A DNA stretch of 64,000 nt. Origin: Candidatus Eiseniibacteriota bacterium (GTDB lineage Bacteria > Eisenbacteria > RBG-16-71-46 > CAIMUX01). The translations under genes and the position numbers were made by a program. Below are positions 23,053-55,766 of the stretch, in pieces; the stretch's first letter is position 1; each line of letters starts with the position of its first letter. Under the pieces are notes generated by a model. The model ran no database searches and was not told where the DNA came from. It saw only the letters and a list, made by a program, of their open reading frames with translations. The DNA lies in contig CAWHYG010000007.1 of NCBI GenBank assembly GCA_963833505.1, positions 195,964-259,963 of the forward strand. Direction: 5' to 3'.

Positions 23053-23604
23053 GTGAACCCATCCGGGCCCTTCGTGCTGTCGCTGCACGACCTCGAAGAG
23101 GGGGAGACGCACCTGGAGATGGTCGGAACCGGTTCCGACCTGGAACTCTCGCGGGACGAGCTGGCGCTGTCCCAGCCGGTCGTGCTGCGCGCCAAGGTCT
23201 TCCGGGCCGCCTACCATGTGGAGGTCCAGGGGACCCTCCTGACGACCGCGGATCTGGTCTGTGATCGCTGTCTCGAACCGATCCGGCGCGCGCTCGAGAT
23301 CCCGTTTCGGGTATTCTCCGAGCGGCAGGAGACCCGGGACCACCGGACCAGACAGGAAATGCGTGAAGAGGATCCCGGGATCGTCTACCATGATGGGCAG
23401 TTTGTGGTTCTGACCGACGAAGTGAGACAGGAGCTTCTGGTGGAGAAGCCCTGGCACGTCGTCTGCCGGCCGGACTGCCTGGGGCTCTGCCCGCGCTGCG
23501 GAGGCAACCGCAACGTGAGCGGCTGCACCTGTCCGGATCGCCGGGATCAGGACAGCCCCGACGCGGAACGCATGGACTCGAAACCAAGAATTGAGTCGGA
23601 GTAG
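23053..23604 (+). CDS. yceD: YceD/DUF177 family protein (large-subunit rRNA accumulation factor)
   Basis: ORF 23053..23604, 183 aa; C-terminal CxxC...CxxC (CDRCLEP ... CLGLCPRCG); conserved position upstream of rpmF-plsX-fab operon. Confidence 0.8.
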   Translation: MNPSGPFVLSLHDLEEGETHLEMVGTGSDLELSRDELALSQPVVLRAKVFRAAYHVEVQGTLLTTADLVCDRCLEPIRRALEIPFRVFSERQETRDHRTRQEMREEDPGIVYHDGQFVVLTDEVRQELLVEKPWHVVCRPDCLGLCPRCGGNRNVSGCTCPDRRDQDSPDAERMDSKPRIESE

Positions 23605-33930: not shown

Positions 33931-34413
33931 TCATCGTCCCCAGGCGTGTCGCGACGCATCCCGATCCGGCGGCGATGGTGGCGGGGTGGATGAGTTCGAG
34001 TTGTTGGAATCGTCGTTCGTGCTCGCATCGACGCCGGTAGCAGGGGTGGGAGTGGTTCCCGAGCCCACCGGCGGGACGGTCGAGGCGCCGGAATTGCGGT
34101 TCCAGGCGCCGCGTCCGCTCGACGCGGGTGCCGGAGACGGCGTGGCCGATCCCGGCGCCGCGTGCCACCAGGAATCATCCCAGTACGACCACGGCTGGAC
34201 GAAGAAGACGTGGGGAACGACTCCGTAGGGCGTGAACGCCAAGTAGTACGGGTCGGTCCACTGGTCGTAGACTGTGGAGTCCGGCGGGGTCCCCAGGTCG
34301 GACTGATCCGACGCATCAGGCAGGCTCGGAGGGCGAAGCAACACGGTGTAGCAGCCGGTCCCGGCCACGACGATGAAAGCGGCAAGACAGAAGATGACCG
34401 CGAAGCGCGACAT
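33931..34413 (-). CDS. small secreted/membrane-anchored hypothetical protein (Trp/Tyr-rich core, Ser/Thr/Pro/Asn-rich tail)
   Basis: In-frame ATG (residue 120 of ORF 33931..34770): MSRFAVIFCLAAFIVVAGTGC signal/anchor; good GC3 bias downstream; no family recognised. Confidence 0.45.
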   Translation of the reverse strand: MSRFAVIFCLAAFIVVAGTGCYTVLLRPPSLPDASDQSDLGTPPDSTVYDQWTDPYYLAFTPYGVVPHVFFVQPWSYWDDSWWHAAPGSATPSPAPASSGRGAWNRNSGASTVPPVGSGTTPTPATGVDASTNDDSNNSNSSTPPPSPPDRDASRHAWGR

Positions 34414-36310
34414 GCCCGACCTCCCTGTCACCGGCTCCGCCGGCGCGGAGCCGTTTGTCGGACGCGAGTGCCAAATCCGCCGGGTCGAGAGCCGAAGAGG
34501 GCCGGTTCGGTCCTTCCCGCGGCTCACGAACTTCCTGACTCGGCTTCTTTCGACCGCAGCGTTGTCTTTTACCGTATACACGGCAGAGGCGGCGGCGTTC
34601 CCTGTTCCGGAGTTTACGCAGGTACTGCCGCAAGCAGGAGTATTTCCGCCGGACACGAGCGGGATCCGCGCCGCCCACGGCATCGTTCCGGCCAACGGAG
34701 CCGGTTCCGGACTGGAAGCGTTCCTGGCGGGTACGCTTCTGGAGGAGCAGGGACGCCACCGGGAGGCCATCGCGGAGTTCCGGAAGGCGCGGGCGGCCGA
34801 CTCGACGGACGTCGCGGCCCCGGTGGCGATCGCTCGCGCCTACGCGGAAATCGACCGCCCGGATTCGGCGGAGGCCTGGATCCGCGCGTCTCTTGGTCTC
34901 TCGCCCCGGAACCTCGAGGCGCTGGTCCTGGCGGGATCCATCGACGAAGGGCTGGGACGCCTCGACAGCGCGCGAGTGGAGTACCAACGGGCGCTTCAGG
35001 TTTCGCCCGACGATCCGGGCGCGTTCATGAATCTGCTGTCCCTCCTGCAGAGGCAGGGGCGCGGGCAGGAGGCCCTCGATCTCATCGAGCAATCCCGCTC
35101 GCCTCTGCTGGAGACGCCTCCGCTCGACTTCCGGAAGGCGCAGATCCAGGCATCTCTGGAGAAGTATCCCGAAGCGATCGAGTCCCTGGCACAGGTCTTG
35201 AAGCGGGAGCCGGATTTTCCGGATGCCGTGGCGCTGCTCCATCTCGCTCTGGCCAGATCGGCCGACCCGGTCTCGGCGGTGCCCGTCCTGGAGGAGATTC
35301 TCAGCGAGCAACCCCAGATGGACCGCGTCCGCGTGGAGCTGGCGCAGATCCTGATGTCCTCCGATCGCTGGAAGGACGCCATACCGCATCTGCAGTTCCT
35401 CTGGCAGGAGCATCCCAAGGACGAGATCATCGCCGCGCACCTCGGCGCGCTTCTGCTCCGGGCGGATCGGAACGCCGAAGCGCAGGCCGCTCTCGAATCC
35501 GCGGCCGGCCTCAAGCCCGATGATCCCGAGCCGCTCCGCCTGCTCTGGCAGGTCGCGTCTCAGTCGAATCGCGATCAGGATGCCCTGGGCCTGGCGAACC
35601 GGCTGGTCGGCCTGGAGCCTCGGGATGCCCGCAGCCGCACGATGCGCGCCCTGAGCCTGGCGAAGTTGGGACATGCGCCGGAGGCGCTGGCCGCGGCCGA
35701 CTCCGCCCTGGGGTTGGATCCGGGAGACAACGAAGCGGCCGTCCTGGCCTCGGGCATATTGAGTCGCCGGAAAGACTACGACGCGGCGGCGCGGCGCGTG
35801 CGGACCGTCATCCAGGCGCATCCGGACGACCGGCCCATGGAGTTCCGCCTGGGAGCGATCCTGGAAGAAGCCGGCCAGATCGACTCGTCTCTGGCGGTTT
35901 TCAACCGGATGCTGGCGGTGGACCCGGACGATGCGATCGCTCTCAATTTCGCCGGCTATATGTGCATCGAACGCGGAATCCGGATGGACGAAGCCATGGA
36001 TCGCGTTCGAAGGGCTCTCAAGTTGCAGCCGGACAACCCAGCATTTCTTGACAGTTACGGATGGGGCCTCTATCGCACGGGGAAGGCGGCCGAGGCGCTC
36101 GATCCGCTGAGCCGGGCCGCCTCGATCGACCCCGAGAATCCCGAGATCCTCAAGCACCTGGGCCGCGTCCAGGCCGAGGCCGGCCACAAGGACGCGGCGG
36201 CCGACACCTATCGGCGCGCGCTTCGCCTGACGCCGGGGGACCAGGAGCTTCAGGGATGGCAGCGGGAGCTGGAGCCGCTCACCGAGCCGCATCCCGATGC
36301 ATCCAAATAA
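34412..36310 (+). CDS. tetratricopeptide-repeat (TPR) protein
   Basis: ORF 34373..36310; many TPR units (e.g. AEAQAALESAAGLKPDDPEPLRLLWQVA); 5' ~300 nt has atypically low GC3, so the true start may lie further downstream (~34700-34830). Confidence 0.6.
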   Translation: MPDLPVTGSAGAEPFVGRECQIRRVESRRGPVRSFPRLTNFLTRLLSTAALSFTVYTAEAAAFPVPEFTQVLPQAGVFPPDTSGIRAAHGIVPANGAGSGLEAFLAGTLLEEQGRHREAIAEFRKARAADSTDVAAPVAIARAYAEIDRPDSAEAWIRASLGLSPRNLEALVLAGSIDEGLGRLDSARVEYQRALQVSPDDPGAFMNLLSLLQRQGRGQEALDLIEQSRSPLLETPPLDFRKAQIQASLEKYPEAIESLAQVLKREPDFPDAVALLHLALARSADPVSAVPVLEEILSEQPQMDRVRVELAQILMSSDRWKDAIPHLQFLWQEHPKDEIIAAHLGALLLRADRNAEAQAALESAAGLKPDDPEPLRLLWQVASQSNRDQDALGLANRLVGLEPRDARSRTMRALSLAKLGHAPEALAAADSALGLDPGDNEAAVLASGILSRRKDYDAAARRVRTVIQAHPDDRPMEFRLGAILEEAGQIDSSLAVFNRMLAVDPDDAIALNFAGYMCIERGIRMDEAMDRVRRALKLQPDNPAFLDSYGWGLYRTGKAAEALDPLSRAASIDPENPEILKHLGRVQAEAGHKDAAADTYRRALRLTPGDQELQGWQRELEPLTEPHPDASK

Positions 36311-41350: not shown

Positions 41351-41506
41351 GCGAGAAGTCAAGGGGGTCCTCTTCCCGGCGCGCTACGCCGGCGCTCCGA
41401 CGTTCCGATCGAACGGCGGCCCTTCTGCCGAGGCCGTGCGCCGGCGTTCCGATCGGCAGGCCGCTCTCTTGATGAGGCCGCGCCCCGGCAGGTGTCCGGC
41501 GAAAGG

Positions 41507-42727
41507 ATGGCGATGGATTTCCGCCGCGTTCTCGAGATCGTCCTCGATCGGAAGGCGAGCGACCTCCACCTCAAGGTGGGAACCCGGCCGCAGATCCGGG
41601 TGGACGGCAGGATCGAGAGCGTCGATGAGCCCCCGCCCACCGTGAAGGAGATGGAAGGCTTCGCCGACATGCTCCTCACGCCGGCCCAGAAGCAGGAGCT
41701 GGCGCAGAAGCGGGAGATCGACTTCGCGATCGGAGTTCCCGGCCTGGCTCGATTCCGGGCCAACGTCTACTACCAGCGGGGGACGATGGCGGTCGTGCTC
41801 CGGCACGTCCCCCTCGGCGTCCCCGCCTTTGAAGAGCTGAATCTTCCGCCCCAGGTGGAGAAGCTCGCGCTCTCTCCCCGCGGCCTCGTCCTGGTCACGG
41901 GCACGGTCGGCAGCGGCAAGTCCACGACGCTGGCTTCGATGATCGATTCGATCAACCGCCGGATCGCGCGCTCCATCATCACGGTGGAAGACCCGGTCGA
42001 GTTTCTCCATCGCGACGACAAGTGCGTGATCAGCCAGCGCGAGGTCGGCCTCGACACCTTGAGCTACGCCGACGCGCTCCGGCACATCCTGAGGCAGGAT
42101 CCCGATGTCATCCTGCTCGGCGAAATCCGGGACCGGGAGACCATGTCGACGGCGCTCATGGCCGCGGACACCGGCCATTCGGTGCTCTCCACCCTGCACA
42201 CGGTGGACGCAGCCCAGACGGTGAACCGCATTCTCTCGTTCTATCCGCCCCACCAGCACGAGGAGATCCGCTACCTTCTCGCCTCCACGCTGCGGGCGGT
42301 GGTGTCGCTGCGGCTGATTCCCAAGGCCGGAGGTTCCGGCCGGGTGCCCGCCGCGGAGATCCTGGTCAACACTCCGACCATCCGGGACTATCTGATGTCC
42401 GCGGACAAGACGCATTCGATACGCTCGGCGATCCAGGAGGGTGCCACGCAGTACGGGATGCAGTCCTTCGATCAGTCCTTGATGCGTCTCTATCGGCGCG
42501 GTTTGATCACGCAGGAGGAGGCGGTGCGGAACTCGTCGACTCCGACCGAGTTCGAGCTGCGGATCCGGGGCATCCAGGCTTCCAGCGACACGAGCTGGGA
42601 CGTGTTCGAGGAGGGGCCCGCCGGTCCGATTCCCTCGGAAGAGCCGGGCTCGGCCGGCGGCAGCGAAGAGCGCGCCCCGGTCGCGCGGGAGCCGGCCGCG
42701 GGGCCCGGAGGCGTGGTGCGGTATTGA
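41507..42727 (+). CDS. pilT: type IV pilus twitching-motility ATPase PilT/PilU family
   Basis: In-frame ATG (residue 209 of ORF 40883..42727): Walker [41 protein letters not shown] motifs. Confidence 0.9.
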
Positions 42728-44284: not shown

Positions 44285-45079
44285 ATGAAGATTGAGCTTC
44301 TGTTGACCGGCGGGGAGGTTCCTGATTTCCACGCCAAGGGGAGGCGCATCGTGCTGGTGGACGTGCTGCGCGCCGGCACCAGCCTGGCGGTCGCCCTCGA
44401 ATCCGGCGCCGAACGCATCGTGCCCGCGGAGTCGGTTGAAGCGGCCAAGAAGCTGCTGGCGCTGCTGGATCGAAAGAGCACGCTTCTGGCGGGGGAGATG
44501 GACGGAGCCAAGCTTCCGGGCTTCGACCTGGGCAACTCGCCCGGCGAGTTCCGCGACGCCCAGATCGCGGGCAAGACCATCGTCTTCAGCTCCAGCGATG
44601 GAGCGCCGCTCATGGCGCGGATGTGGGACGCGGCCGAGATGCCCCTGCTTTCGTTCGTGAACATCCAGGCCGTGACCGACTATCTGCTGGCCATGGAGGA
44701 GACCGACCTCTCGGTGATCTGCGCGGGCCGGGAAGGCCGCTTCAGCATGGAGGATGCGGTCTGCGCCGGCATGCTCTGCGAGCGGCTCGCCGGGAAGTCG
44801 TCGGATCTCGAGACCAATGACGCGGGCCGGGCCGCCCTGTTGCTCTACCGGGCCCGCGCCGCCGATCTGACCGAAGTGCTGCGGACCTGCTCGAGCGGGC
44901 TTTTCCTCAAGAGCCTGGGGCTGGAGGCGGATCTGGACGAGGCCGCCCGCGTCGACTCGATCCGGCTGGTGCCGGTGGTTCGCGAGGGACGGATCACGGC
45001 GATTCGCCCGCCCTGGCCGGCGCCCGCCGTGGACCCGCCGGTCAGTGGGTCACCTTCCAGAAGAGCAGCCCGCCGATAG
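44285..45079 (+). CDS. 2-phosphosulfolactate phosphatase (ComB) family protein
   Basis: ORF 44285..45079; resemblance to the ComB family (VLVDVLRAGTS ... SSDGAPL ... AGREGRFSMEDAVCAG); assignment from memory, moderate. Confidence 0.6.
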   Translation: MKIELLLTGGEVPDFHAKGRRIVLVDVLRAGTSLAVALESGAERIVPAESVEAAKKLLALLDRKSTLLAGEMDGAKLPGFDLGNSPGEFRDAQIAGKTIVFSSSDGAPLMARMWDAAEMPLLSFVNIQAVTDYLLAMEETDLSVICAGREGRFSMEDAVCAGMLCERLAGKSSDLETNDAGRAALLLYRARAADLTEVLRTCSSGLFLKSLGLEADLDEAARVDSIRLVPVVREGRITAIRPPWPAPAVDPPVSGSPSRRAARR

Positions 45080-46151
45080 CTCCGAAGACCAGATTCCCGA
45101 GCCAGGCCGCCAGCATCGGGGGAAGATCCCCGTTGTACCCCAGCGCCTGGCCGACTCGGATGAAGGAGAAGTAGGCGAACCCCACCGAGACGCTGATGCC
45201 GAATCCCAGCGCCAGGTTGCCGCCCCGGACCACCCGGAGGGACAGGGCGGTCCCGAGCAGGACCATGATCAGGTTGGCCAGGGGGAACGAGGCGCGGAGA
45301 TGGAAGTTCGTCATGTGCTTCTGAACGCCCCCGCCGCTTTCCCGCACCCGCCGCGCGAAGGCGAGCAGGTTCTTCATGCTCATGTGAAAGGGATCCTCGT
45401 TCAAGCGGGCGAAGTCTCCCGGCACCTCCGCCAGCGAGCTGTTGCCGTAGTACTGGAAGTGGAGGACGGTCTCGGAGGAATCGCGGAAGGACCGGTCGTA
45501 GCCGCGAAAGAAGCGCCAGGTCCCTTGCAGGTACTCGGCCGACTCCGCGTCGATCCTCCGGCGGATCTCCGGCCGTTGGATGAACTGGAGGGAGACGCCG
45601 CGAAGGGCCTGGGCTCCCGCGTCGTAGTACTGGGCCACGTAGAAGCGCCTCTGGGCGCCCAGGAACCGGACCTCGGTCTGGCTCTCGCGGTCGGCGTCGG
45701 ACTGCTTTCGGATCTCCTCGGAGAGAATGCGCTGCTGTCGCGCGTAGCTCGACGGACCGATGGCTTCGTTCATGACGTACTGGCCGATCGAGACCAGGAG
45801 GGCGGTCAGGAGCAGCGGCCGGGCCAGGCGCCATGGGCTTTCTCCCGCTCCCTGCATGGCGGTGACCTCGTTGTTCTTCCGGAGCGCGCTCAATCCCAAG
45901 AGGGCGCCGAGCAGAAGCGCCAGGGGCAGCACCTCGGTCAGGGTGGTGGGCAGCCCGTTGCCGTAGTAGCGGAGGACCATGAGAGGCGTGGCGTGGTTGT
46001 CCACGAAGACGTCGAGCTTCTCGAAGAGGTCGACGATGATGAACAGGCCGACGAAGCTGACCAGCCCGAGGAGGGAGTAGCCCAGGAACTCCCGGAGCAG
46101 GTATCGGTCGAGGATTCTCACGCCGATCCTTCCGCCGCCGCCCCGTCTCAT
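45042..46151 (-). CDS. LptF/LptG-family LPS export permease (YjgP/YjgQ)
   Basis: Second half of ORF 45042..47522; starts MRRGGGGRIGVRILDRYLLREFLG (ATGA overlap with upstream stop); N-terminal TM helices, periplasmic domain, C-terminal TM helices. Confidence 0.75.
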   Translation of the reverse strand: MRRGGGGRIGVRILDRYLLREFLGYSLLGLVSFVGLFIIVDLFEKLDVFVDNHATPLMVLRYYGNGLPTTLTEVLPLALLLGALLGLSALRKNNEVTAMQGAGESPWRLARPLLLTALLVSIGQYVMNEAIGPSSYARQQRILSEEIRKQSDADRESQTEVRFLGAQRRFYVAQYYDAGAQALRGVSLQFIQRPEIRRRIDAESAEYLQGTWRFFRGYDRSFRDSSETVLHFQYYGNSSLAEVPGDFARLNEDPFHMSMKNLLAFARRVRESGGGVQKHMTNFHLRASFPLANLIMVLLGTALSLRVVRGGNLALGFGISVSVGFAYFSFIRVGQALGYNGDLPPMLAAWLGNLVFGAIGGLLFWKVTH

Positions 46152-47522
46152 ATCGACCGGGCCCGCGCGCGGCGGGCCGGCTGGCCCGAAGTGATGGCCC
46201 GGGCCGTCAGGTAGAGACCGAGGAGGCCGAGGACGATGTTCGGAAGCCACATCGCCAGCCAGGGGGAGATGATCAGGCGGTCGGCCAGTTGCTCGCCTCC
46301 GACCAGGCAAAGGTAGTAGAACAGGAAGAAGACCACGCTGAAGAACGCCGCCGCCATCCCTCCGCGCCGGGCCATGGTTCCGAGCGGGGCGCCCACGAGA
46401 ACGAACACGATGCAGGCGACCGGAATCGAGAGCTTCTTCTGGATCTCGACCCGGTAGCTGCTGATCTGGCGTTTGACCGAGCTGATCTCGTCCATTCTGG
46501 GATCGGATCTTCTCGGCCTCGAGCTTCTGCTCCGACGTCCAGCTCGGGGGAGCGCCGGAAGGCACGGCGGGAGCACGGTGGCGGAGGGCGCCGAGCAGGA
46601 CGGCCGCTTGGAGGAGGGGAACGGGATAGACCCGATTCAGGTCGGCCAGGCTCTTGACCGGAAGTTTCGTCATCTCCTGCCGGATGAGCGTGTCCTGCCG
46701 CGCCTGCTCGGTCCGGAGCGTGCGCACGGCGGCCTCCATGGCCGGGATCGACATCTCCCGCTGGCCGCGCTGATGTTCCATCGTGGTCCGGAACTGATCG
46801 GTCGGGTCGCTGATGTTGAGGGTCTGGGCGTCGAAACGGAGCCGCCGATACTCGCCCGTCGTCGAGGTCGGATCGGCCTCGTGGATCTCGCCGTCCACGA
46901 GGTCCAGCGTGAGCGAGTTCGTGTCCGCGCGGAACCGGAGCGTACCGGTGCGCGCCAGGATGGTCCTCGGCGAGATCGGATGGGTTCTCCCGTCCAGGAT
47001 GAGCACATCCCGCATCGCTCCGGTGGCGTCGTCCAGGTGGCCGATCCAGAGGTCGTACCCCCGGAAGTCGGTGATCATCACCCCCTCGCGGATCTGGGCG
47101 GTCGGGTGCTTCCGGGAGACGTCGCTCAAGGTCTGCGAGTATCCGTAGTTCATGTCGGGCAGGATGTAGTTGTTGAAGAGCGCCAGCACCCCGGCCACAA
47201 TCACGGAAGCTGCAAGCGCCGGGCGCAGCACGGTCATGAGGTGGACGCCGCTGGCCCGGATCGCGATGATCTCGTTGTCCTGGCTAAGGCGGCCGAAGGT
47301 CATCAGGACGGAGACCAGGACTCCGCAAGGCACGGAGAGGGCGACCATCCAGCCGAGGGCCAGGACGAAGAGCTTGAGGACGATCCAGGCGCCGACGCCC
47401 TTGACGATGAGGAGCTCCAGAAGGTCCAGGAGCATGTCGATCGTCAGGAGAAAGGTCACGAAGCCGAACCCGATGAAGAACGGCCCGACCAGGGATCGGG
47501 CCACATAGCGTTTCAGGATCAT
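46148..47522 (-). CDS. LptF/LptG-family LPS export permease (apparent frameshift ~46500-46600)
   Basis: N-terminal 300 aa in the frame of ORF 45042..47522 (MILKRYVARSLVGPFFIGFGF ...); C-terminal TM region in the frame of ORF 46148..46576 (EIQKKLSIPVACIVFVLVGAPLG ... LGLLGLYL); a G5 run at 46546-46550 lies in the switch region. Confidence 0.7.
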
Positions 47523-47718: not shown

Positions 47719-50700
47719 TTGAAGCGACGATCCGGAATGATCCGGCGCCGAAGCTCCGGAGTCTGCGCCCTCTTCCTGCTCCTTCTGTTCGCGGCGGGGC
47801 CAACCGGTCCCCGGAGAACTGGAGCGGAGTCGGAGTTTGCCGTGCCCGGCGGCGCGGCCGCTCATCCGGCGGACGGGGCGGGAGCTCCCGCATCCGATCC
47901 GGGGCGGGGTGCGGATGAGACGCAGCCTGATTCCGCCAAGGTCGCGCCTCCGGACACCCTGCCCGCGCCTCGCGCCAGGCCGATTCCCCCGGTCTCGAAC
48001 TCCGCGGCTCGGCCGGATTCCGCGCGGTCGGTGGGTCCGGACACGCTGCCGGCGTCCCATCCCACGCCGGCTCCGCAGGCGGCCACGACCGCGGCTCGGC
48101 CGGATTCCGCGCGGTCGGTGGGTCCGGACACGCTGCCGGCGTCCTATCCCACGCCGGCTCCGCAGGCGGCCACGACCGCGGCTCGGCCGGATTCCGCGCG
48201 GTCGGCGCGTCCGGACACGCTGCCGCCTTCCAATCCGGCGCCGGCTCCGCAGGCGGCCACGGCCGCCGCTCGAGCCGATTCCTTCCGGGTGGCCCTGCCC
48301 GACACCCTGCCGATCCCAGCCCCGGTGGAGGAGATCACCTCCTCCGACACCAGCCGAGCCGGCCTACCTGTTGAGAATCCAGCGCAACCGGACACCTCCA
48401 AGGGCCGCGGGACCAAAGCGGCTCCGGTGGCGGCTGCGGGAGTCCTGGCTGCCGCGCTCGCCGCCGGCGATACGGCGGCCGTCCGCCAGGCGTTCGCGCA
48501 ATTTCCGTTCTGGGTTCCGCCCCCGGGACTGTGCCCGAGTCAACAGGCGTTTCTCTTTCGGGTCGTCTCCGAGGAGCGGTGGGCCGACGTCATCCGGACC
48601 GGAGGGTTTCTCAAGCCTGAGATCCAGATGCGTGAAGACAGCCTGACCGCGCGGCTCATCATCCCGGAGGCGCCTCGCCTGAGCCTTGCCGACCAGGTGA
48701 CCCAGCAGGCGTCACCCCACGCCGACGACGGCGCGATCGAGCTCACGCGGACGGTCCGGGACACGCCGGTGGAGCCTCCGGTTCGAATGACCCAGGCCGA
48801 ATACCTGTCGCGTCTGACCCAGACGCAGTTCCGGCAGTTCTGGAAGGAGACGGTGGATCAGAGCCTCCGGAACAACGCGACCCAGGAAAACGGCCGGAAA
48901 GGGCTGCTCCGATTCGATCTGCCCGTCCAGCTTCCCTCGCAGCTTCAGACCATCTTCGGGGCCGGCAATCCCGATCTGTCCTGGCGCGGAAGCGAGAAGA
49001 TGTCGTTCGGCGGCACTTCCATCTGGCATCCCAATCTGATTGCCAACGAAATCGCCGCCAAGGAGTCGAAGTTCCCCCAGCTCGAGATGAAGCAGGACCT
49101 GAACTTCTCCCTCACCGGCACGATCGGGGACAAGGTCTCGGTGGACCTCGATCAGGCGACCGACACGGCCACGCCGCTCGCGAACAAGATCAAGATCCGC
49201 TACAAGGGATACGACGACGAGGTCGTCCAGAAGATCGATCTCGGCAACACCAGCCTGAGCCTGCCGGGCACGCAGTACGCCACCTACAGCGGAAACGTCG
49301 AAGGCCTGTTCGGAATCAACGCCCTGTCGCGCCTGGGCCCGGTCGACGTCACGACCATCCTCTCGAAGCAGGAGGGGCAGAACGAGTCGAAGACGGTGAG
49401 CGCCGCGGCCGAAACGAAGACGATCCAGATCAACGACATGGACTACATCGCGGGGAAGTACTTCTTCCTGCGCACTCCGAACGGTTGTCCCTGGCAGCTC
49501 GACCAGAACTCGCTCAGCGTCTTCCTCGACGACAAGAACGGATCCAACGACGTGCAGCAGGGAGCGATTCCGGGGAAAGCGACCCTGGACGGCAACTCCG
49601 CCGACGGCGGCCACAGCTATCCGGGCATGTTCTACCGGCTCCAGCCGGGACCGCCTCCCGACGGCCAGTACGAGATCCAGAATGACGTCTACACCGGCCA
49701 GCCGGTGCTGATCCTGAATGACGCACTGAACGACCGGTACGCCCTCGCCGTGACCTACGCCGGCTGGTATCTCGACGCCAACCTCCACCCCGACCAGGGC
49801 AGCCCGATCCACGTCGGTCAGATCGCGGCGGACACGCTGCGGCTCGAGTTGCTCCGTCCTTCCGTCTCCGATCTCTCGACCAATCGGAGGCAGGGAACCT
49901 GGGGCCCGCTGGCCAACCTGGAGCTTCGCAACATGTACGATCTCCAGGCTCGAGGGATCCTGAAAGCCGGGTTCCAGCTTCACATCCGGTTGAAGAGCTC
50001 AAGCGGCGGAGTCGTCGAGCCCGACCGGATCGGGCAGACCACCTTCCTGCAGATGACGGCTCTCGACCTGTCCAAGCAGACCGACACCGGTTACTCGCCC
50101 GGCCGCGACGACCTGGTCGACGACCAGTTCATCAGCTATCAAAACGGGATTCTCCACTTCCCGGACCTTCGACCCTTCGATCCCGACTCGTCCGACCTGG
50201 GGTTGCCTCCGGTACGCTGCAACGGTTTCGCCTACGCCCGCTATGGTCCGGCCAGCCCGGCCGATCCGACCGATTGGGTGAACTCGACCCTCCGGACCTA
50301 TGACACCCAGACGGCCTACCGCCCCAGGGTGCTGCCGATGTCGCCCGACTCGGCCAGCCTGTTCCGGGCGCCCGCCATCTATGACAACGTGATCCGCCAG
50401 GACACCGACAGCCGCTACTACCTGGAGATCACCTACAGCAGTCCGGTCAGCAAGATCGATCTCGGCGCCGTCGGGATCCTGGCGGGCAGCGAAACGGTGA
50501 CGGCGGGGGCGAGGACCCTGGTGCGGGACCGCGACTATCGGATCGACTACGACGTCGGGGAGGTCGAGATCCTTCCGGCCGCCGGCATCACCGAGTCGGA
50601 CCAGATCCACGTGACCTACTCCTATCTGCCGTTCGCCGGCACGGGCGGACAGAAGACGCTGTTCGGCACCGCCGCCTCCTATGCGCCCGAGCAGGGCAAT

Positions 50701-53700
50701 CTGTCCTTGTCGACCGCCTGGCTCTTCCAGAGCCAGGGCGGCGTTTCCGGCATCGAAGGGAACCGGCCCCGCCTGGGCCAGGAGCCGTCCCGCACGCTGG
50801 TGGGAGAGGTGGCCGGAACGTACAAGACCGACTCCAGGCTGATCACGAAGCTCATCGACGACATTCCGGGAGTGGACACGCGCCTCCCGACCAAGATCGA
50901 CCTGGCGGTCGGAGCCGGCATCTCCGTGCCGAACCCGAACACGAAGAACGTCCTTTACATCGACGACTTCGATGGAGTGAAGGACGACACGCCGCTCAGC
51001 ATGAACCGGCTGTCCTGGCGATGGAGCTCCATCCCGGGATCGGACCTGACCGGCGCCGCCCTCCAGACGAAGGCGAATCGACATGGGGAGCTGTGGTGGT
51101 ACTCCCCGCGCAACATCGTGCATGAGAGGGATCTCCAGCCGACGCTGGACCAGCAGGAGGGCGAGAACAGCCACCAGGTCATGATGCTGCAGTTCTATCC
51201 GCACGTTCCGGACACGGACAGTCCCGACAGTTCCTGGGCCGGGCTCACCACGCCGATCTCGGTCACCGGCCAGGACTTCTCTCGCGCCCAGTTCCTCGAC
51301 ATCTGGGTCAACGACTTCATCCAGTGGCCCGACGTCCTGCACCGGCGCCGCGGCAAGCTGCACATCGACCTGGGCAAGGTGAGCGAAGACGCCATGTGGT
51401 ACAAGAACGACCCGTCCGCTCCGGCTGACCAGTGGAAGGTCGTGCTCCCGAATGGAAAGCTCGACACCGAGGACGCCAACCGGGACGGCAAGCTCGACCA
51501 GACGGAGGACGTTGGTCTGGACGGCATCAAGCACGGCGATCCGGGGGCCGATCCCAACGACGTCTATCAGTACGATGACAGCGCCCCGGAGTCCGACCAG
51601 AAGTACGCGCACGTCAACGGGACCGAGGGCAACCAGATTCTCGACACCGAGGACCTGGACGGCGACGGCCAGCTCGAGACCCAGAACTCCTACTTCGAAA
51701 TCACCGTGGATCTGGGGGACTCGACCCTGTGGCAGACCGACGTCTACCGCGACTATCCGGGCTACCGTGGCAAGCTCGATTCGTCCAACGGCTGGCGCCG
51801 GATCCGCATCCCCCTGCAGGTGGACACCCTGGTCCATCCGGTGTACGACTTCGCCGCCGGTCCTCCGGTCTGGGCCAAGATCTTTCACGCGCGCCTCTGG
51901 GTCTCCGGGCTCTCGGCTCCGACCCAGATCGAGCTGGGCGGCATCGACATCACCGGCAATCGGTGGTTCCAGAGCCAGATCGCCGACTTGAGGGGCCGCC
52001 TGCTGCCCGACAGCGCCCTGGCGCCGGGGGAGAGCTTCTTCATCGGGACGGTGAACAACAAGGACGACGCGTCCATCTATCAGTCGCCGGTGACGATCCA
52101 GAAGGACGCCAACAACATCCCCGAGCAGGAGCAGTCCATCACGCTGAACCTCACCGAGTTCCAGCCCGGGCACGCGGCCACCATCTACCGGACGTATCCG
52201 GACCGCCAGGACTACACCTTGTACAACGACATGCAGTACTACGTGAGCGGATACAACCAGGGGAGCTCCAATCTGGTCTGCGGGGTGCGGCTCTGCCGGG
52301 ACGCGGTCTCCGATTCGGCCAACTATTACGAGTATCAGATCCCGGTGAAGTCCGAATGGCAGCTCGTCGACATCAATCTGGCCGCCCTGAGCCGGCTGCA
52401 GCTTTTGCGTCCCGACACGGTCAGCGGCATGGTGGCGCAGGATCTCGGTAACGGCGTCCGCATGATCCGGCGGGGAGCGCCCTCGTTGAACAGCGTCCAG
52501 AGGATCAGCTTCGTCGTGTACAACACGGGGAGCTTCCCGGTGACCCAGGGGAGCGTCTGGATCGACGAGCTGCGTCTGACCGACGTCAAGAAGGACGTGG
52601 GGCTCGCGGCCCGCATGCACCTGGGGGCGGATCTCGGCGGCCTGGCCCGTCTGGACCTGAGCTACCAGCGCACGGGGGCCGACTTCCTCACGGTGGGAGC
52701 GGATCGCGGCAGCGGCACCACGACGACGACCTGGGGTTTCGCCGGGTCGAGCGACAACCTGTTCGGATTCGGCGACCGTCTGGGCCTGAACCTGCCGGTC
52801 CACGTGACCTACAACGACACGCGGGCCGTGCCGAAGTTCCGCCCGAACAGCGACCTCATCCTGGACACGCCCCGGACCGGCGACATCTCGGTGACCAACA
52901 GCGAGGAGTTTTCGTTCACCGCCCAGCGGAAGCAGTCCCCGGAGTGGTGGAGCCGGTATCTGCTCGAGCCCTTCTCCTTGAGCGGGCGCGTGAATCGGTC
53001 GCTCGATCTCGAGCCCACCAGCCAGGACACCTCGGTGACCCGGAGCGGCTCGGTGGCCTGGAACTTCTCTCTCGAGCAATGGGGGGACATCGGGCTGAGC
53101 CAGAAGATGAAACTCCGCCTGATCCCCACCATGCTGTCCGCCACGGTGACCGGCGCGACCACGCAGGACCGGCGCTATTACCGGAGCGACGTCAATTCGG
53201 ACTACGCGCCTCAGCCCAGCCAGGACCTGACCTCCGCTGGCCTCGCCTTGTCTGCGGCTGCCCGGCCCTTGACGCCGGTGACCTATCGCATCGACAGCAC
53301 GCGCGATCTCATGCTCCACGAGGGGGAGATGAAGCTGTTCGGCATGAACCTGGGGGAGGAGACGGCGCGCCACCACCAGCTCAGCGCTTCAACCGACATT
53401 CCAATCCTGAGACAGATCCTGTCCCCGAGGGTGTCCTGGTCGGGCAACTCCGGTCTGGCCGCCGCCATCCAGACCTCGGTGCTGCCGGGGGAACCCGCGC
53501 GGCAGCTCTCCTTCAACAACTCGCGAACGACGGACTGGGGGGGACGCCTCTCGCTGCCCGATCTGTTCCACGGCCTGACCACCTTCGGGCGCCGTCGCGC
53601 CGCCCAGGACACAACCGGCGGAAAGGGGTCGCGGGCCAATGGAGCTTCACCGCTCCCCGGGTCTCTGGCTCCGAACGCGCCCCCGCCCGCGCCTTCCGGA

Positions 53701-55227
53701 CGGTTTCCTTCGCCCGGCCGGTTGTCGAATCCAGAGCCGGGCGGCGCGCCGGACTCGAATCCTGGTTCTCGTTTCTCGAACCCGCCGTCGGGCGGCCCAT
53801 CGTTCTCGAACCCGATGCCTGGCGCGGACCAGAATCCGACCTCGAACCCGGCTACGAATCCGGAAACGAGCCCGGCCACGAACCCGACGACCAACCCGCC
53901 CACGAATCCGGCAACGAGCCCGGCTACCAACCCCGCGACGAACCTGGCAACAGGCCCGGCCACGAATCCGGCAACGAGCCCGGCCACGAACCCGACGACG
54001 AATCCCCCAACGAACCCAGCGCCCGCCACGAACCAGAGGTCACCGGTCTCGGGTCCGGATTTGCCGATCGCCCCGGAATCCCCACCGGTGCCTCCGGGGC
54101 TTCCGTATCAGCCGCCGGAGCCCGAGCCCGCCCAGCCCGGGGCGGAGGGCACCCCGCCAAGTGGCGGGACCGCCCAGCCGTCTCCCTCGGCGCAACCGGG
54201 AAATGAGGCCGCTCAGTCGCCCGCCGGCGCAACCCAGAACCCGGCGCCGGGAACGAAACCACCGCCGTCGCCTCACGCCGGGTCCCTGGCCCGCCAGCTG
54301 GGCGTGAGCTTCATGTCCCTCGGCGCCATCGAGATCTCCTACGGTCTCAGCACCCAGACGAGCTACTCGAGCCAGAAAGGGGAGCCGAGTCTCTTCTACC
54401 AGCTTGCGTTCGTGAACAGTCCGGGGCCGGGCGCTCAGGCGCTGAGTCGCGCCACCGCCACCGAGACCAACTCGCAAACCCTCGACCTGAGCACCAACCT
54501 CAAGCTTCCCCGGGCGATCAATGTTGCGCCGCGGTACTCCCGTTCGACCGGTCAAACGGCCACGAACGGACTCACGACGATGACCAACGACCTCAAGTGG
54601 CCCGATCTCGACATCAGCTGGGGCAATCTGTACCAGGCGATCGGATTGGGCAGATGGTTCCAGGGCTTCCAGGCGAACACCCACTACAGCAAGGAGAGGC
54701 GGATCCAGGGTTCGACCGACTACCCGGAGACGAACCTGACCTCGGGCTATTCTCCGCTGCTCAACGTCAACGCCACGTTCAAATCGGGCGTGACCGCCAC
54801 CCTGAATTCCAGCTACACCTCCACCTCCGACCTGCTTACGGGCGCGGGCGAGGCCGGCGGGTACGAAACCGAAAACGACACGGACCACCTGCAATGGACG
54901 ATCACCTTCAAAAAGACCTTGAACCTGACGAAGAAGATCGCCGTGCCGATGACCAAGGAAGTCAAGACGGTGCAGACGAGGGTCGATCTCAACGCGAGCC
55001 TCGACTACATCGCCGACAAGCGGGAAACCCGAGCCTCCGGCCAGCCTCCGGTGGTGACCGACAACCGCGCGAGCGTCAAGTTCGAAGCCGGCCTGGGCTA
55101 TCAGTTCACCCAACGGATCAACGGAACCGGGTCGCTCAACTTCGGCAAGGACGTCGACAAGAAGAACGACGCCAATTCCGTGAATCAGCTCGGACTCGTC
55201 TTCACCGTCACCTTCTCGCTGGACTGA
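47719..55227 (+). CDS. sprA: giant outer-membrane protein, SprA-like (candidate type IX secretion translocon), 2502 aa
   Basis: ORF 47719..55227 with no internal stop; signal peptide; beta-rich throughout, ending in a beta-barrel-like C-terminus (...QLGLVFTVTFSLD); calcium-binding-like DxDxDG repeats; size matches SprA (~2400 aa); family assignment is from memory, not a search. Confidence 0.6.
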   Translation: MKRRSGMIRRRSSGVCALFLLLLFAAGPTGPRRTGAESEFAVPGGAAAHPADGAGAPASDPGRGADETQPDSAKVAPPDTLPAPRARPIPPVSNSAARPDSARSVGPDTLPASHPTPAPQAATTAARPDSARSVGPDTLPASYPTPAPQAATTAARPDSARSARPDTLPPSNPAPAPQAATAAARADSFRVALPDTLPIPAPVEEITSSDTSRAGLPVENPAQPDTSKGRGTKAAPVAAAGVLAAALAAGDTAAVRQAFAQFPFWVPPPGLCPSQQAFLFRVVSEERWADVIRTGGFLKPEIQMREDSLTARLIIPEAPRLSLADQVTQQASPHADDGAIELTRTVRDTPVEPPVRMTQAEYLSRLTQTQFRQFWKETVDQSLRNNATQENGRKGLLRFDLPVQLPSQLQTIFGAGNPDLSWRGSEKMSFGGTSIWHPNLIANEIAAKESKFPQLEMKQDLNFSLTGTIGDKVSVDLDQATDTATPLANKIKIRYKGYDDEVVQKIDLGNTSLSLPGTQYATYSGNVEGLFGINALSRLGPVDVTTILSKQEGQNESKTVSAAAETKTIQINDMDYIAGKYFFLRTPNGCPWQLDQNSLSVFLDDKNGSNDVQQGAIPGKATLDGNSADGGHSYPGMFYRLQPGPPPDGQYEIQNDVYTGQPVLILNDALNDRYALAVTYAGWYLDANLHPDQGSPIHVGQIAADTLRLELLRPSVSDLSTNRRQGTWGPLANLELRNMYDLQARGILKAGFQLHIRLKSSSGGVVEPDRIGQTTFLQMTALDLSKQTDTGYSPGRDDLVDDQFISYQNGILHFPDLRPFDPDSSDLGLPPVRCNGFAYARYGPASPADPTDWVNSTLRTYDTQTAYRPRVLPMSPDSASLFRAPAIYDNVIRQDTDSRYYLEITYSSPVSKIDLGAVGILAGSETVTAGARTLVRDRDYRIDYDVGEVEILPAAGITESDQIHVTYSYLPFAGTGGQKTLFGTAASYAPEQGNLSLSTAWLFQSQGGVSGIEGNRPRLGQEPSRTLVGEVAGTYKTDSRLITKLIDDIPGVDTRLPTKIDLAVGAGISVPNPNTKNVLYIDDFDGVKDDTPLSMNRLSWRWSSIPGSDLTGAALQTKANRHGELWWYSPRNIVHERDLQPTLDQQEGENSHQVMMLQFYPHVPDTDSPDSSWAGLTTPISVTGQDFSRAQFLDIWVNDFIQWPDVLHRRRGKLHIDLGKVSEDAMWYKNDPSAPADQWKVVLPNGKLDTEDANRDGKLDQTEDVGLDGIKHGDPGADPNDVYQYDDSAPESDQKYAHVNGTEGNQILDTEDLDGDGQLETQNSYFEITVDLGDSTLWQTDVYRDYPGYRGKLDSSNGWRRIRIPLQVDTLVHPVYDFAAGPPVWAKIFHARLWVSGLSAPTQIELGGIDITGNRWFQSQIADLRGRLLPDSALAPGESFFIGTVNNKDDASIYQSPVTIQKDANNIPEQEQSITLNLTEFQPGHAATIYRTYPDRQDYTLYNDMQYYVSGYNQGSSNLVCGVRLCRDAVSDSANYYEYQIPVKSEWQLVDINLAALSRLQLLRPDTVSGMVAQDLGNGVRMIRRGAPSLNSVQRISFVVYNTGSFPVTQGSVWIDELRLTDVKKDVGLAARMHLGADLGGLARLDLSYQRTGADFLTVGADRGSGTTTTTWGFAGSSDNLFGFGDRLGLNLPVHVTYNDTRAVPKFRPNSDLILDTPRTGDISVTNSEEFSFTAQRKQSPEWWSRYLLEPFSLSGRVNRSLDLEPTSQDTSVTRSGSVAWNFSLEQWGDIGLSQKMKLRLIPTMLSATVTGATTQDRRYYRSDVNSDYAPQPSQDLTSAGLALSAAARPLTPVTYRIDSTRDLMLHEGEMKLFGMNLGEETARHHQLSASTDIPILRQILSPRVSWSGNSGLAAAIQTSVLPGEPARQLSFNNSRTTDWGGRLSLPDLFHGLTTFGRRRAAQDTTGGKGSRANGASPLPGSLAPNAPPPAPSGRFPSPGRLSNPEPGGAPDSNPGSRFSNPPSGGPSFSNPMPGADQNPTSNPATNPETSPATNPTTNPPTNPATSPATNPATNLATGPATNPATSPATNPTTNPPTNPAPATNQRSPVSGPDLPIAPESPPVPPGLPYQPPEPEPAQPGAEGTPPSGGTAQPSPSAQPGNEAAQSPAGATQNPAPGTKPPPSPHAGSLARQLGVSFMSLGAIEISYGLSTQTSYSSQKGEPSLFYQLAFVNSPGPGAQALSRATATETNSQTLDLSTNLKLPRAINVAPRYSRSTGQTATNGLTTMTNDLKWPDLDISWGNLYQAIGLGRWFQGFQANTHYSKERRIQGSTDYPETNLTSGYSPLLNVNATFKSGVTATLNSSYTSTSDLLTGAGEAGGYETENDTDHLQWTITFKKTLNLTKKIAVPMTKEVKTVQTRVDLNASLDYIADKRETRASGQPPVVTDNRASVKFEAGLGYQFTQRINGTGSLNFGKDVDKKNDANSVNQLGLVFTVTFSLD
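48007..48267 (+). repeat. in-frame 87-bp tandem repeat x3 (29-aa unit ARPDSARSVGPDTLPASHPTPAPQAATTA) in the N-terminus of the SprA-like gene
   Basis: Three near-identical copies (1-2 nt differences) seen in both nucleotide and protein sequence. Confidence 0.85.
53640..54270 (+). repeat. low-complexity Pro/Thr/Asn/Ser-rich region with short tandem units (TNPA/ATNP) inside the SprA-like gene
   Basis: Translation ...NPATNPETSPATNPTTNPPTNPATSPATNPATNLATGPATNPATSPATNPTTNPPTNPAP...; ~66-bp units repeated at DNA level. Confidence 0.8.
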
Positions 55228-55766
55228 CAGCCCGATCCTCGCCCGACTGACGGTCCGTTCCGTCGGCGACTCCATCCTCCGATCGGCGATGGCCTGCCGG
55301 CCCTTTGCGCGCCTACCGGATCCGGCCCTCCGCGAACCGACGCGTGGGCCGAGGGTTCGAAACCGCCCCTTCGGAACGGCCGGGTCTCCGTCTGAGGTGG
55401 CCGTTCCCATCCGGCAGCCCCACGGGCCATGCCTCGAGGCTGAGCTATAGACATGATTGGCGGGCGCGAACGGTTCTGGCATACTGAGGAAGATGTTCCG
55501 TCCCGAACTGGCTCCCGGAAACTCCGGCGGGCCGGGGAGGTCGCAGCGACTCACATCTGCGGGGGATACCTGGTGGCCTAGGTTTTCCCATGGAGTCAGA
55601 ACCGACGGCTGGGGCCGTTGAGGAGCCTGCCGCCCCGTTTGATTTGGACGGGGGGCAGGGGGTCACTCTGCCCTTGCCACGGTGTCCGACCCTGTGTACG
55701 GTGAGACTGCGTGGACGGACGTCCACGTTTTTGTTTGAGCGGAGGTGTCTCTCCGGGGAGACTGGG

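What the first reader, a model, noticed from the sequence alone, without database searches (positions are those of the whole stretch)
47719..55227. 2502-aa outer-membrane protein interpreted as SprA-like, suggesting a type IX secretion system
A single uninterrupted 7.5-kb ORF with signal peptide, beta-rich composition and a beta-barrel-like C-terminus matches the size and architecture of the SprA/Sov translocon. This would fit the two LTD proteins in the window, one of which ends in a FlgD-Ig/CTD-like sorting-type domain. It lies just downstream of the lptF/lptG-like genes and upstream of rimP-nusA-infB.
Basis: partly seen in the sequence, partly recalled or inferred. Interest (0 to 1): 0.65.

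Follow-up and report, generated by a model that had tools for sequence, protein, structure and literature searches.

The report
SprA-type type IX secretion translocon gene
The 7.5-kb gene really encodes a giant outer-membrane pore of the SprA/Sov family, the exit channel of the type IX protein secretion system, in a bacterium related to the uncultured phylum Eisenbacteria; this is an expected, already-annotated kind of gene with a few lineage-specific decorations.

Summary
The ORF 47719..55227 (+) is real. Its likelier start is the ATG at 47737, which gives 2496 aa with a signal peptide. It passes NCBI's equivalog model for the T9SS translocon Sov/SprA (475 bits, cut-off 200) and Pfam SprA_N. 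A profile of it and 15 relatives aligns end to end with the solved Flavobacterium johnsoniae SprA (E 7.6e-147). An AlphaFold model of the last 757 aa matches SprA chains first in the PDB. The nearest relatives (48-52% identity) are Candidatus Eisenbacteria MAGs, and one such protein is already named SprA in NCBI.

The SprA call is therefore supported. A complete T9SS is inferred, not shown: no other T9SS core gene passes a curated model in the 64 kb. The C-terminal domain of the LTD protein is FlgD-Ig-like and only marginally like a true T9SS sorting domain.

Special features: a roughly 260-aa disordered Pro/Ala-rich N-terminal extension with an 87-bp x3.2 repeat, and a 238-aa Pro-rich disordered insert that all 15 relatives lack.

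Verdict: new member of a known kind, low to moderate interest.

The parts
47737..55227 (+). sprA/sov-family gene: 2496 aa from ATG 47737 (the mechanical ORF starts at TTG 47719); stop codon TGA at 55225-55227
   Evidence: ORF; GC3 0.86; TIGR04189 475 bits against 200; SprA_N 56.6 against 27; profile against PDB 6h3i_A E 7.6e-147
47737..47829 (+). Signal peptide, approximate: MIRRRSSGVCALFLLLLFAAGPTGPRRTGA. No lipobox here, unlike several relatives
   Evidence: Read from the translation. Relatives P0007, P0010, P0011 and P0016 show lipobox-like ...G/S-C after the hydrophobic core. The cleavage site was not computed
47830..48606 (+). N-terminal Pro/Ala-rich low-complexity extension, about 259 aa (A 23%, P 17%). 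It precedes the conserved SprA N-terminal motif and is predicted to be periplasmic
   Evidence: Composition. Relatives have non-alignable extensions of 60-320 aa here, while F. johnsoniae SprA aligns from its residue 27. The SprA N-terminus is periplasmic in the extended translocon (PMC10994853)
48002..48282 (+). Tandem repeat, 87 bp x 3.2 copies, 93% matches (29-aa unit AARPDSARSVGPDTLPAS.PTPAPQAATT)
   Evidence: Tandem Repeats Finder, score 462
48607..53592 (+). Conserved SprA body (aa 291-1952), collinear with F. johnsoniae SprA. It includes the Pfam SprA_N match
   Evidence: phmmer against 6h3i/6h3j gives 4 collinear stretches; TIGR04189 best stretch 700-1715; invariant columns in A1
53593..54306 (+). 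Lineage-specific disordered insert of 238 aa (P 26%, A 13%, G 11%, S 11%, T 10%, N 9%), at a site where relatives carry a linker of about 30 aa
   Evidence: Absent from all 15 aligned relatives; pLDDT below 50; composition
53832..54017 (+). 12-bp microsatellite-like repeat x 15.5 (tetrapeptide NPAT/TNPA units) inside the insert
   Evidence: Tandem Repeats Finder
54307..55224 (+). C-terminal barrel-wall segment, about 12 predicted beta strands. It ends ...VFTVTFSLD, where relatives end ...SASFTF
   Evidence: AlphaFold pLDDT 80-95; Foldseek best hits are SprA chains 8gl8_A, 8gl6_A, 6h3j_A and 6h3i_A at E 2e-12 to 1e-8, and the next family is at 5e-4; DNA read
55709..55738 (+). Terminator-like hairpin plus T-run between the sprA stop and the probable true rimP start (about 55767)
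   Evidence: Consensus scan only. rimP homology begins at ORF residue 35-60. The scan found 6 such sites against 4.3 expected, so this is weak
45042..47522 (-). Context: fused lptF-lptG gene (826 aa), divergently transcribed from sprA across a 214-bp spacer
   Evidence: Pfam LptF_LptG in two stretches; TIGR04407 273 bits and TIGR04408 298 bits, both above cut-off; GC3 0.84 on the minus strand against 0.66 for the + strand shadow ORFs
2592..2885 (+). Candidate (inferred) T9SS-type C-terminal sorting domain of LTD protein 1080..2888: a 7-strand FlgD-Ig-like sandwich at the extreme C-terminus
   Evidence: Homologues carry PF13860; profile A4 hits FlgD at E 5e-9 and the PorU CTD at E 0.016; AlphaFold pLDDT 84; the Foldseek result is not diagnostic

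Best explanation
The gene encodes the SprA/Sov outer-membrane translocon of a type IX secretion system in a high-GC bacterium of, or next to, the candidate phylum Eisenbacteria (FCB superphylum).

Mechanism, by homology with the solved F. johnsoniae protein. This part is inferred, not shown here. After Sec export, the protein folds into a very large (36-strand) beta barrel whose pore is capped on the outside. Folded cargo carrying a C-terminal Ig-like sorting domain enters from the periplasm and binds a PorV-type carrier at a lateral opening. Cargo is released in an energy-dependent step driven by the inner-membrane GldLM/PorLM motor.

Shown here:
- Family membership.
- Full-length collinearity with the solved SprA.
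- An SprA-like fold for the C-terminal third.
- The Eisenbacteria affiliation.
- Conserved gene neighbourhood.

Inferred:
- That the partner proteins exist elsewhere in the genome.
- That proteins ending in FlgD-Ig-type domains, such as the LTD protein at 1080..2888, are its cargo.
- That the N-terminal Pro/Ala-rich extension is a periplasmic tether.
- That the 238-aa Pro-rich insert is a tolerated loop expansion. Strand parity (12 predicted strands follow it) tentatively places it on the periplasmic face.
For: - TIGR04189 scores 475.1 bits against a cut-off of 200, E 4.9e-142. Pfam SprA_N is above its gathering score.
- phmmer against the PDB finds only F. johnsoniae SprA (6h3i, 6h3j, 8gl6 and others), in 4 collinear stretches.
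- The profile of 16 family members aligns with chain residues 27-2368 of 2403 in one stretch, E 7.6e-147.
- The AlphaFold model of aa 1740-2496 is a strand meander, and its four best PDB matches are all SprA chains (E 2e-12 to 1e-8, TMq 0.45-0.49). The next family is at E 5e-4 with TMq 0.12.
- All 29 non-self homologues except two carry PF14349. P0016 is named 'cell surface protein SprA [Candidatus Eisenbacteria bacterium]' by NCBI.
- The species-representative genome scan returns three loci at 48-52% identity. Two are titled Candidatus Eisenbacteria MAGs and the third 'uncultured bacterium'.
- The gene order htrA-aroB-accB-pilT-accC-lptFG(-)-sprA-rimP-nusA-infB is kept across these MAGs and in a 41%-identical one, so the gene is a stable, vertically inherited part of the lineage.
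- T9SS is reported as restricted to the FCB superphylum and as possibly present in several non-Bacteroidota FCB phyla (PMC11285876).
- The LTD protein family ends in a FlgD-Ig-type domain with marginal similarity to the PorU and PorZ sorting domains. FlgD_ig superfamily labels are known to fall on T9SS CTDs (PMC11611037).
Against: - No other T9SS core component (GldK/L/M/N, PorV, PorU, SprE/PorW, SprT/PorT, PorP, PorZ) reaches a curated cut-off in the 64 kb. The other roughly 2.4 Mb of the genome could not be examined.
- The only PorV-like candidate, the FadL-type outer-membrane protein at 32404..33786(-), scores 31.8 bits against 90 for PorV_fam. It is closer to BamG (56.8 bits against 250), and both scores are below cut-off.
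- The window's LTD protein hits no CTD model itself, and TIGR04183 is not hit by any of 14 family members.
- The C-terminal third is too diverged for sequence-only detection: profile A2 finds nothing in the PDB.
- The protein ends in ...TFSLD rather than the terminal aromatic residue of its relatives.
Confidence: 0.85

Rival explanations
1. An orphan or repurposed SprA homologue. The lineage keeps the giant barrel but lacks a canonical T9SS, and the protein serves another outer-membrane role. Its fixed position beside lptFG and the nusA-infB operon would fit a housekeeping envelope function.
For: No other T9SS gene lies in the window. The housekeeping neighbourhood next to the LPS-export permease is strictly conserved in four MAGs. 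No paper in the library links Eisenbacteria with T9SS.
Against: In Bacteroidota the T9SS genes are also scattered (established knowledge), so absence from 64 kb means little. The equivalog-level HMM score is more than twice its cut-off. The N-terminal motif that docks periplasmic partners in F. johnsoniae lies within the aligned region, chain residue 27 onwards. FlgD-Ig C-terminal domain proteins occur in the window and beside sprA in another lineage.
Confidence: 0.1
2. A decaying or inactive copy. The 238-aa repeat-driven insert and the altered C-terminal end have disabled the barrel.
For: The insert is unique among 16 sequences and is built partly from a 12-bp microsatellite. The terminal Phe of relatives is replaced by ...SLD. 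The assembly has at least one 1-bp indel elsewhere.
Against: The 7.5-kb frame is intact with GC3 0.87-0.89 on both sides of the insert. The insert sits where relatives already have a variable Pro-rich linker of 30-90 aa. The flanking strands are predicted with pLDDT above 85. The nearly invariant Phe at position -4 is kept.
Confidence: 0.04
3. A chance ORF in GC-rich DNA, or a different giant outer-membrane protein family.
For: High-GC DNA gives long shadow ORFs, for example the 1125-aa antisense ORF at 49999..53376.
Against: The probability of a stop-free run this long is about 9e-25, and there is strong codon-position GC asymmetry. There are 29 non-self homologues at E <= 1e-10. The only family passed is SprA. 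The one other hit, a phage tail tube model, scores 26 bits against a cut-off of 60.
Confidence: 0.01

Closest known systems
Flavobacterium johnsoniae SprA (PDB 6H3I/6H3J; extended translocon 8GL6/8GL8), the T9SS outer-membrane translocon
   Same: Similar size (2496 against 2403 aa) with a signal peptide. The family profile is collinear over chain residues 27-2368. The conserved N-terminal motif region is present. The C-terminal barrel-wall fold matches.
   Different: - Pairwise similarity is low: phmmer E 2e-30, with only about 900 residues aligned.
- There is an extra disordered Pro/Ala-rich segment of about 260 aa after the signal peptide.
- There is a 238-aa disordered insert before the last 12 or so strands.
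- The host is a high-GC Eisenbacteria-like lineage, not Bacteroidota.
- The partners PorV, Plug, PPI, SprE and SkpA were not identified here.
SprA homologues of Candidatus Eisenbacteria MAGs (for example NCBI MCA9755150.1, 'cell surface protein SprA'; contigs CAIMUX010000047.1 and JADJQY010000005.1)
   Same: 41-52% identity over the whole conserved body. The same neighbourhood, lptF/G(-)-sprA-rimP-nusA-infB. A low-complexity N-terminal extension is also present.
   Different: - None has the 238-aa insert.
- Several have a lipobox-like Cys after the signal sequence; this one does not.
- In the 41% relative, lptF and lptG are separate genes and a Peptidase_M28 gene sits between sprA and rimP.
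Porphyromonas gingivalis Sov
   Same: Covered by the same equivalog model, TIGR04189 'Sov/SprA'. Comparable length (about 2500 aa, from my own knowledge).
   Different: Not compared directly here, because no Sov structure or sequence was retrieved.

Membership tests
SprA/Sov T9SS translocon family (TIGR04189 / PF14349) | Score above the curated cut-off of the equivalog model TIGR04189 | tested here: met
   475.1 bits against 200, E 4.9e-142, 3 stretches
SprA/Sov T9SS translocon family (TIGR04189 / PF14349) | Pfam SprA_N domain above its gathering score | tested here: met
   56.6 bits against 27, aa 1299-1712
SprA/Sov T9SS translocon family (TIGR04189 / PF14349) | Full-length collinear homology to a solved SprA | tested here: met
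   Profile A1 against 6h3i_A: one stretch, chain 27-2368 of 2403, E 7.6e-147
SprA/Sov T9SS translocon family (TIGR04189 / PF14349) | Giant (more than 2000 aa) Sec-exported outer-membrane beta barrel with an SprA-like barrel wall | tested here: met
   Signal peptide at M7. The AlphaFold model of the last 757 aa is a strand meander whose top four PDB matches are SprA chains. The full 36-strand barrel was not modelled because of the tool's 1200-aa limit
SprA/Sov T9SS translocon family (TIGR04189 / PF14349) | Occurrence within the FCB superphylum | tested here: met
   Nearest genomes are Candidatus Eisenbacteria MAGs. That Eisenbacteria belong to the FCB group rests on my own knowledge
Complete type IX secretion system | Motor and ring genes gldK/L/M/N (porK/L/M/N) in the same genome | not testable with these tools
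   None in the 64-kb window. The rest of the 2.45-Mb contig could not be fetched
Complete type IX secretion system | PorV carrier protein (NF033709/NF033710) | tested here: not met
   This applies to the window only. The FadL-type outer-membrane protein at 32404..33786(-) scores 31.8 bits against 90 for PorV_fam, 32.8 against 325 for PorV2 and 56.8 against 250 for BamG. Its homologues are named FadL-type transporters
Complete type IX secretion system | Cargo with a type A (TIGR04183) or type B (TIGR04131) C-terminal sorting domain | tested here: inconclusive
   No window protein hits these models. The C-terminal domain of the LTD protein family is FlgD-Ig-like (FlgD E 5e-9), with marginal hits to the PorU CTD (E 0.016) and to the PorU and PorZ models (E 0.006-0.011 in 3 of 14 members). 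The fold is a generic 7-strand sandwich
Complete type IX secretion system | Periplasmic partners SprE/PorW (TPR lipoprotein) and a Skp homologue | tested here: inconclusive
   The TPR proteins at 34373..36310 and 8936..11251 hit only generic TPR models below cut-off. No Skp/OmpH was seen in the window

The most novel reading that the evidence does not exclude
Eisenbacteria, a phylum with no published secretion-system analysis in the searched library, run a full T9SS with three unusual properties:
- The sorting signal is a FlgD-Ig-type C-terminal domain that escapes the standard CTD models.
- The translocon carries a long disordered periplasmic N-terminal tether, lipid-anchored in some members. 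In this genome it also carries a 238-aa repeat-expanded Pro-rich periplasmic loop.
- The translocon gene is locked into a conserved envelope and translation gene block beside a fused lptFG, which hints at co-regulation with LPS export.
Probability: 0.3. Interest if true: 0.4.

Novelty: new member of a known kind. Interest (0 to 1): 0.25.

Why it matters
This gene adds a well-supported SprA translocon from a high-GC, uncultured FCB lineage related to Eisenbacteria. That extends the sequence diversity available for mapping which parts of the 36-strand pore are indispensable.

It shows that one linker before the last 12 or so strands can absorb about 240 disordered residues. It also shows that the periplasmic N-terminus can be preceded by hundreds of low-complexity residues.

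For annotation it matters in two small ways. The public start codon (V42) cuts off the signal peptide. And FlgD-Ig-type C-terminal domains in such lineages may be unrecognised T9SS signals.

None of this changes the current view that T9SS is an FCB-superphylum trait.

Tried and rejected
1. A different giant outer-membrane protein family, or a phage origin. The only non-SprA hit was a phage tail tube model at 26 bits against a cut-off of 60, so this was rejected.
2. Sequence-only detection of the C-terminal third. Profile A2 found nothing in the PDB. I replaced it with a fold comparison, which did find SprA.
3. Direct library hits for a sorting domain on the LTD protein. Pfam at E<=1 and NCBIfam at E<=0.1 found none. 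Only a family profile and homologue annotations revealed the FlgD-Ig domain.
4. The FadL-type outer-membrane protein as PorV. It is below every cut-off and closer to BamG, it has no PDB sequence hit, and its homologues are named FadL. I do not accept it as PorV.
5. Fetching the source genome. The exact look-up of P0001 failed. Look-ups of two other window proteins returned only short Logan contigs from run ERR11594402. The species-representative genome collection does not hold the source genome. The genome-wide T9SS census therefore could not be done.
6. Literature on Eisenbacteria and T9SS: no paper found.
7. The motif WGxVKxLY at the end of the second LTD protein was searched across the window and the loci. 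It occurs once only, and I did not pursue it.
8. Deciding the membrane side of the insert. Only strand parity from the model was available. The loop-length pattern is not fully consistent with it, so the periplasmic assignment stays tentative.
Full report
**Observation**

The window has 67.7% GC. A single open frame runs from 47719 (TTG) to the TGA at 55225-55227 on the + strand, 2502 codons. A stop-free run of that length has a chance of about 9e-25 at this base composition. The frame shows the codon-position GC pattern of real genes in this window: GC3 0.86-0.89 and GC2 about 0.45 in the conserved parts. The long antisense ORFs inside it, for example 49999..53376, lack this pattern and are shadows.

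The likelier start is the ATG at 47737. It gives MIRRRSSGVCALFLLLLFAAG..., a typical signal peptide (read). The identical public protein (P0001, 2461 aa, on a 2,453,571-bp contig in NCBI/ENA) is annotated from Val42 and therefore lacks it.

**What it is**

- NCBIfam's equivalog model TIGR04189, 'T9SS outer membrane translocon Sov/SprA', scores 475.1 bits against a cut-off of 200 (E 4.9e-142).
- Pfam SprA_N scores 56.6 bits against 27.
- Against all PDB sequences, the protein alone finds only Flavobacterium johnsoniae SprA (6H3I, 6H3J, 8GL6 and others), in four collinear stretches, E about 2e-30.
- A profile of the protein with 15 homologues (alignment A1) aligns with that chain in one stretch, residues 27-2368 of 2403, E 7.6e-147.
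- The C-terminal third is too diverged to be found by sequence alone. An AlphaFold model of aa 1740-2496 (numbering from M7) is a long strand meander with pLDDT 80-95 outside one disordered segment.
- The four best structural matches of that model in the PDB are all SprA chains (E 2e-12 to 1e-8, TMq 0.45-0.49). The next family, FapF, is at E 5e-4 with TMq 0.12.

Membership of the SprA/Sov family is therefore met on every feature I could test.

**Whose gene it is**

The best non-identical homologues are 46-53% identical metagenomic proteins. One at 41% is named 'cell surface protein SprA [Candidatus Eisenbacteria bacterium]' by NCBI. A scan of one genome per species found three loci at 48-52% identity. 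Two are titled Candidatus Eisenbacteria MAGs and the third 'uncultured bacterium'. The source genome itself is not a representative. Short contigs identical to parts of the window come from run ERR11594402.

**Neighbourhood**

- Upstream lies one 826-aa gene on the minus strand (45042..47522). It passes both the LptF and the LptG equivalog models, so it is a fused lptFG transcribed divergently from sprA. It is not an upstream gene on the same strand.
- The fusion is also continuous in the closest MAG, where a single tblastn segment crosses the junction. In the 41% relative the two are separate genes.
- Downstream come rimP, nusA, infB, a DUF503 gene, rbfA, truB, ribF, rpsO and pnp.
- The order htrA-aroB-accB-pilT-accC-(comB)-lptFG(-)-sprA-rimP-nusA-infB... 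is conserved in all four related MAG loci. The gene is thus an old, vertically inherited resident of a housekeeping block.
- A terminator-like hairpin at 55709-55738 lies between sprA and the probable true rimP start. This is a consensus match only.

**Peculiarities of this copy**

1. After the signal peptide come about 259 residues of Pro/Ala-rich low complexity (47830..48606). They contain an 87-bp repeat in 3.2 copies at 93% identity (48002..48282).
   - Relatives also have non-alignable extensions of 60-320 aa here, and several of them begin with a lipobox-like Cys.
   - F. johnsoniae SprA aligns from its residue 27 and has no such segment.
   - In F. johnsoniae the N-terminus is periplasmic, where it folds inside a Skp trimer and touches SprE (PMC10994853). 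I therefore infer that the extension is a periplasmic tether.
2. A 238-aa insert (aa 1953-2190, window 53593..54306) is absent from all 15 relatives, which have about 30 residues there (P0012 has about 60 and P0019 about 90).
   - Its composition is P 26%, A 13%, G 11%, S 11%, T 10%, N 9%.
   - It includes a 12-bp repeat in 15.5 copies.
   - It is predicted to be disordered.
   - Twelve predicted strands follow it. If the C-terminus is periplasmic, as in other outer-membrane barrels, the insert is on the periplasmic face. The loop-length pattern is not fully consistent with this, so the assignment is tentative.
3. The protein ends ...VFTVTFSLD, where relatives end ...SASFTF. The DNA shows no sign of a frameshift.

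**Is there a T9SS?**

This is inferred, not shown.

- *Core genes.* I scanned essentially all credible ORFs of the window with Pfam, and 21 of them with NCBIfam. No other T9SS core model is passed.
- *PorV candidate.* The FadL-type outer-membrane protein at 32404..33786(-) is not accepted as PorV. It scores 31.8 bits against 90 for PorV_fam and 56.8 against 250 for BamG, and its homologues are named FadL-type. BamG is the FadL-like BAM subunit conserved in FCB phyla (PMC12611786).
- *LTD proteins.* Both are real.
- *Cargo domain.* The first LTD protein (1080..2888) hits no sorting-domain model itself. Eight of its full-length homologues carry PF13860 FlgD_ig. A profile of the last 98-109 residues hits FlgD Ig domains (E 5e-9) and, marginally, the C-terminal sorting domain of P. 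gingivalis PorU (residues 1079-1155 of 1156, E 0.016).
- *Other weak signals.* Three of 14 family members touch the PorU and PorZ models at E 0.006-0.011, and none hits TIGR04183. The modelled domain is a 7-strand sandwich (pLDDT 84) that matches FlgD, C5a-peptidase Fn3 domains and PorU about equally. The domain is therefore compatible with a T9SS signal but not diagnostic of one.
- *Wider context.* A review notes that FlgD_ig superfamily labels fall on T9SS CTDs in Cytophaga (PMC11611037). In another lineage a FlgD_ig protein lies four genes downstream of sprA.
- *Literature.* T9SS is described as an FCB-superphylum trait that 'may also be present' in several non-Bacteroidota FCB phyla (PMC11285876). 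No paper in the library mentions it for Eisenbacteria.

**Verdict**

The SprA interpretation is supported. The strand and fusion of lptFG and the start codon need correcting. The cargo link is weak.

This is a new member of a known kind that public pipelines already label correctly in sister MAGs. The disordered N-terminal extension and the unique 238-aa insert are modest curiosities. Interest is low to moderate.

Noticed in passing
window 23595..25474 (-): A complete group II intron on the minus strand, between yceD (23053..23604, +) and plsX (25766.., +). Rfam D1-D4 scores 185.6 bits at 25251..25474, and the D5/D6 model 45.5 bits at 23595..23669. Its ORF at 23741..25186 is a group II reverse transcriptase/maturase (TIGR04416, 304.7 bits against 300). 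The region has lower GC and reversed GC skew.
   Followed up: partly
window 45042..47522 (-): lptF and lptG are fused into one 826-aa ORF, and both equivalog models are passed. The fusion also looks continuous in the closest Eisenbacteria MAG. In a 41%-level relative the two genes are separate and overlap by 4 bp.
   Followed up: partly
window 2882..5693 (+); L004 1942..4620: The coding signal switches frame near 3950-4023. A short-read contig from run ERR11594402 is identical over 4.6 kb except for one 1-bp gap, and it reads through as a single ORF of at least 893 aa with a signal peptide. The window assembly therefore probably carries an indel error, or a real frameshift, in this gene. The protein has no Pfam or NCBIfam hit.
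   Followed up: partly
window 32404..33786 (-): A FadL-superfamily outer-membrane protein (Pfam Toluene_X 33.6 bits). Its best NCBIfam similarity is to BamG, the FadL-like BAM subunit of Bacteroidota (56.8 bits against 250). It also has a short N-terminal PorV/PorQ-like motif. All scores are below cut-off. Homologues lie on the same contigs as SprA homologues in two relatives, judged by matching contig lengths of 31114 and 63840.
   Followed up: partly
window 16433..17071 (+): The second LTD protein probably starts at the Met at 16433, with a lipobox-like ...VGSC. It ends in TWGRVKSLYGRP. That motif occurs nowhere else in the window or the fetched loci.
   Followed up: partly
L006 17002..17880; L007 16464..17369: In a 41%-identical Eisenbacteria MAG, and in a more distant lineage (27% identity), a Peptidase_M28 gene directly follows sprA. 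The window has no such gene between sprA and rimP.
   Followed up: no
window 41408..42727 (+): A PilT/PilU-family type IV pilus retraction ATPase (TIGR01420, 447.9 bits against 319) sits between accB and accC. This placement is conserved in the related MAGs.
   Followed up: no
window 12335..16212 (-): Two tandem paralogous genes of about 645 aa each. Both combine a PMT_2-type glycosyltransferase domain with C-terminal TPR repeats. They lie next to an SGNH/AlgX-like esterase gene and a 771-aa TPR protein.
   Followed up: no
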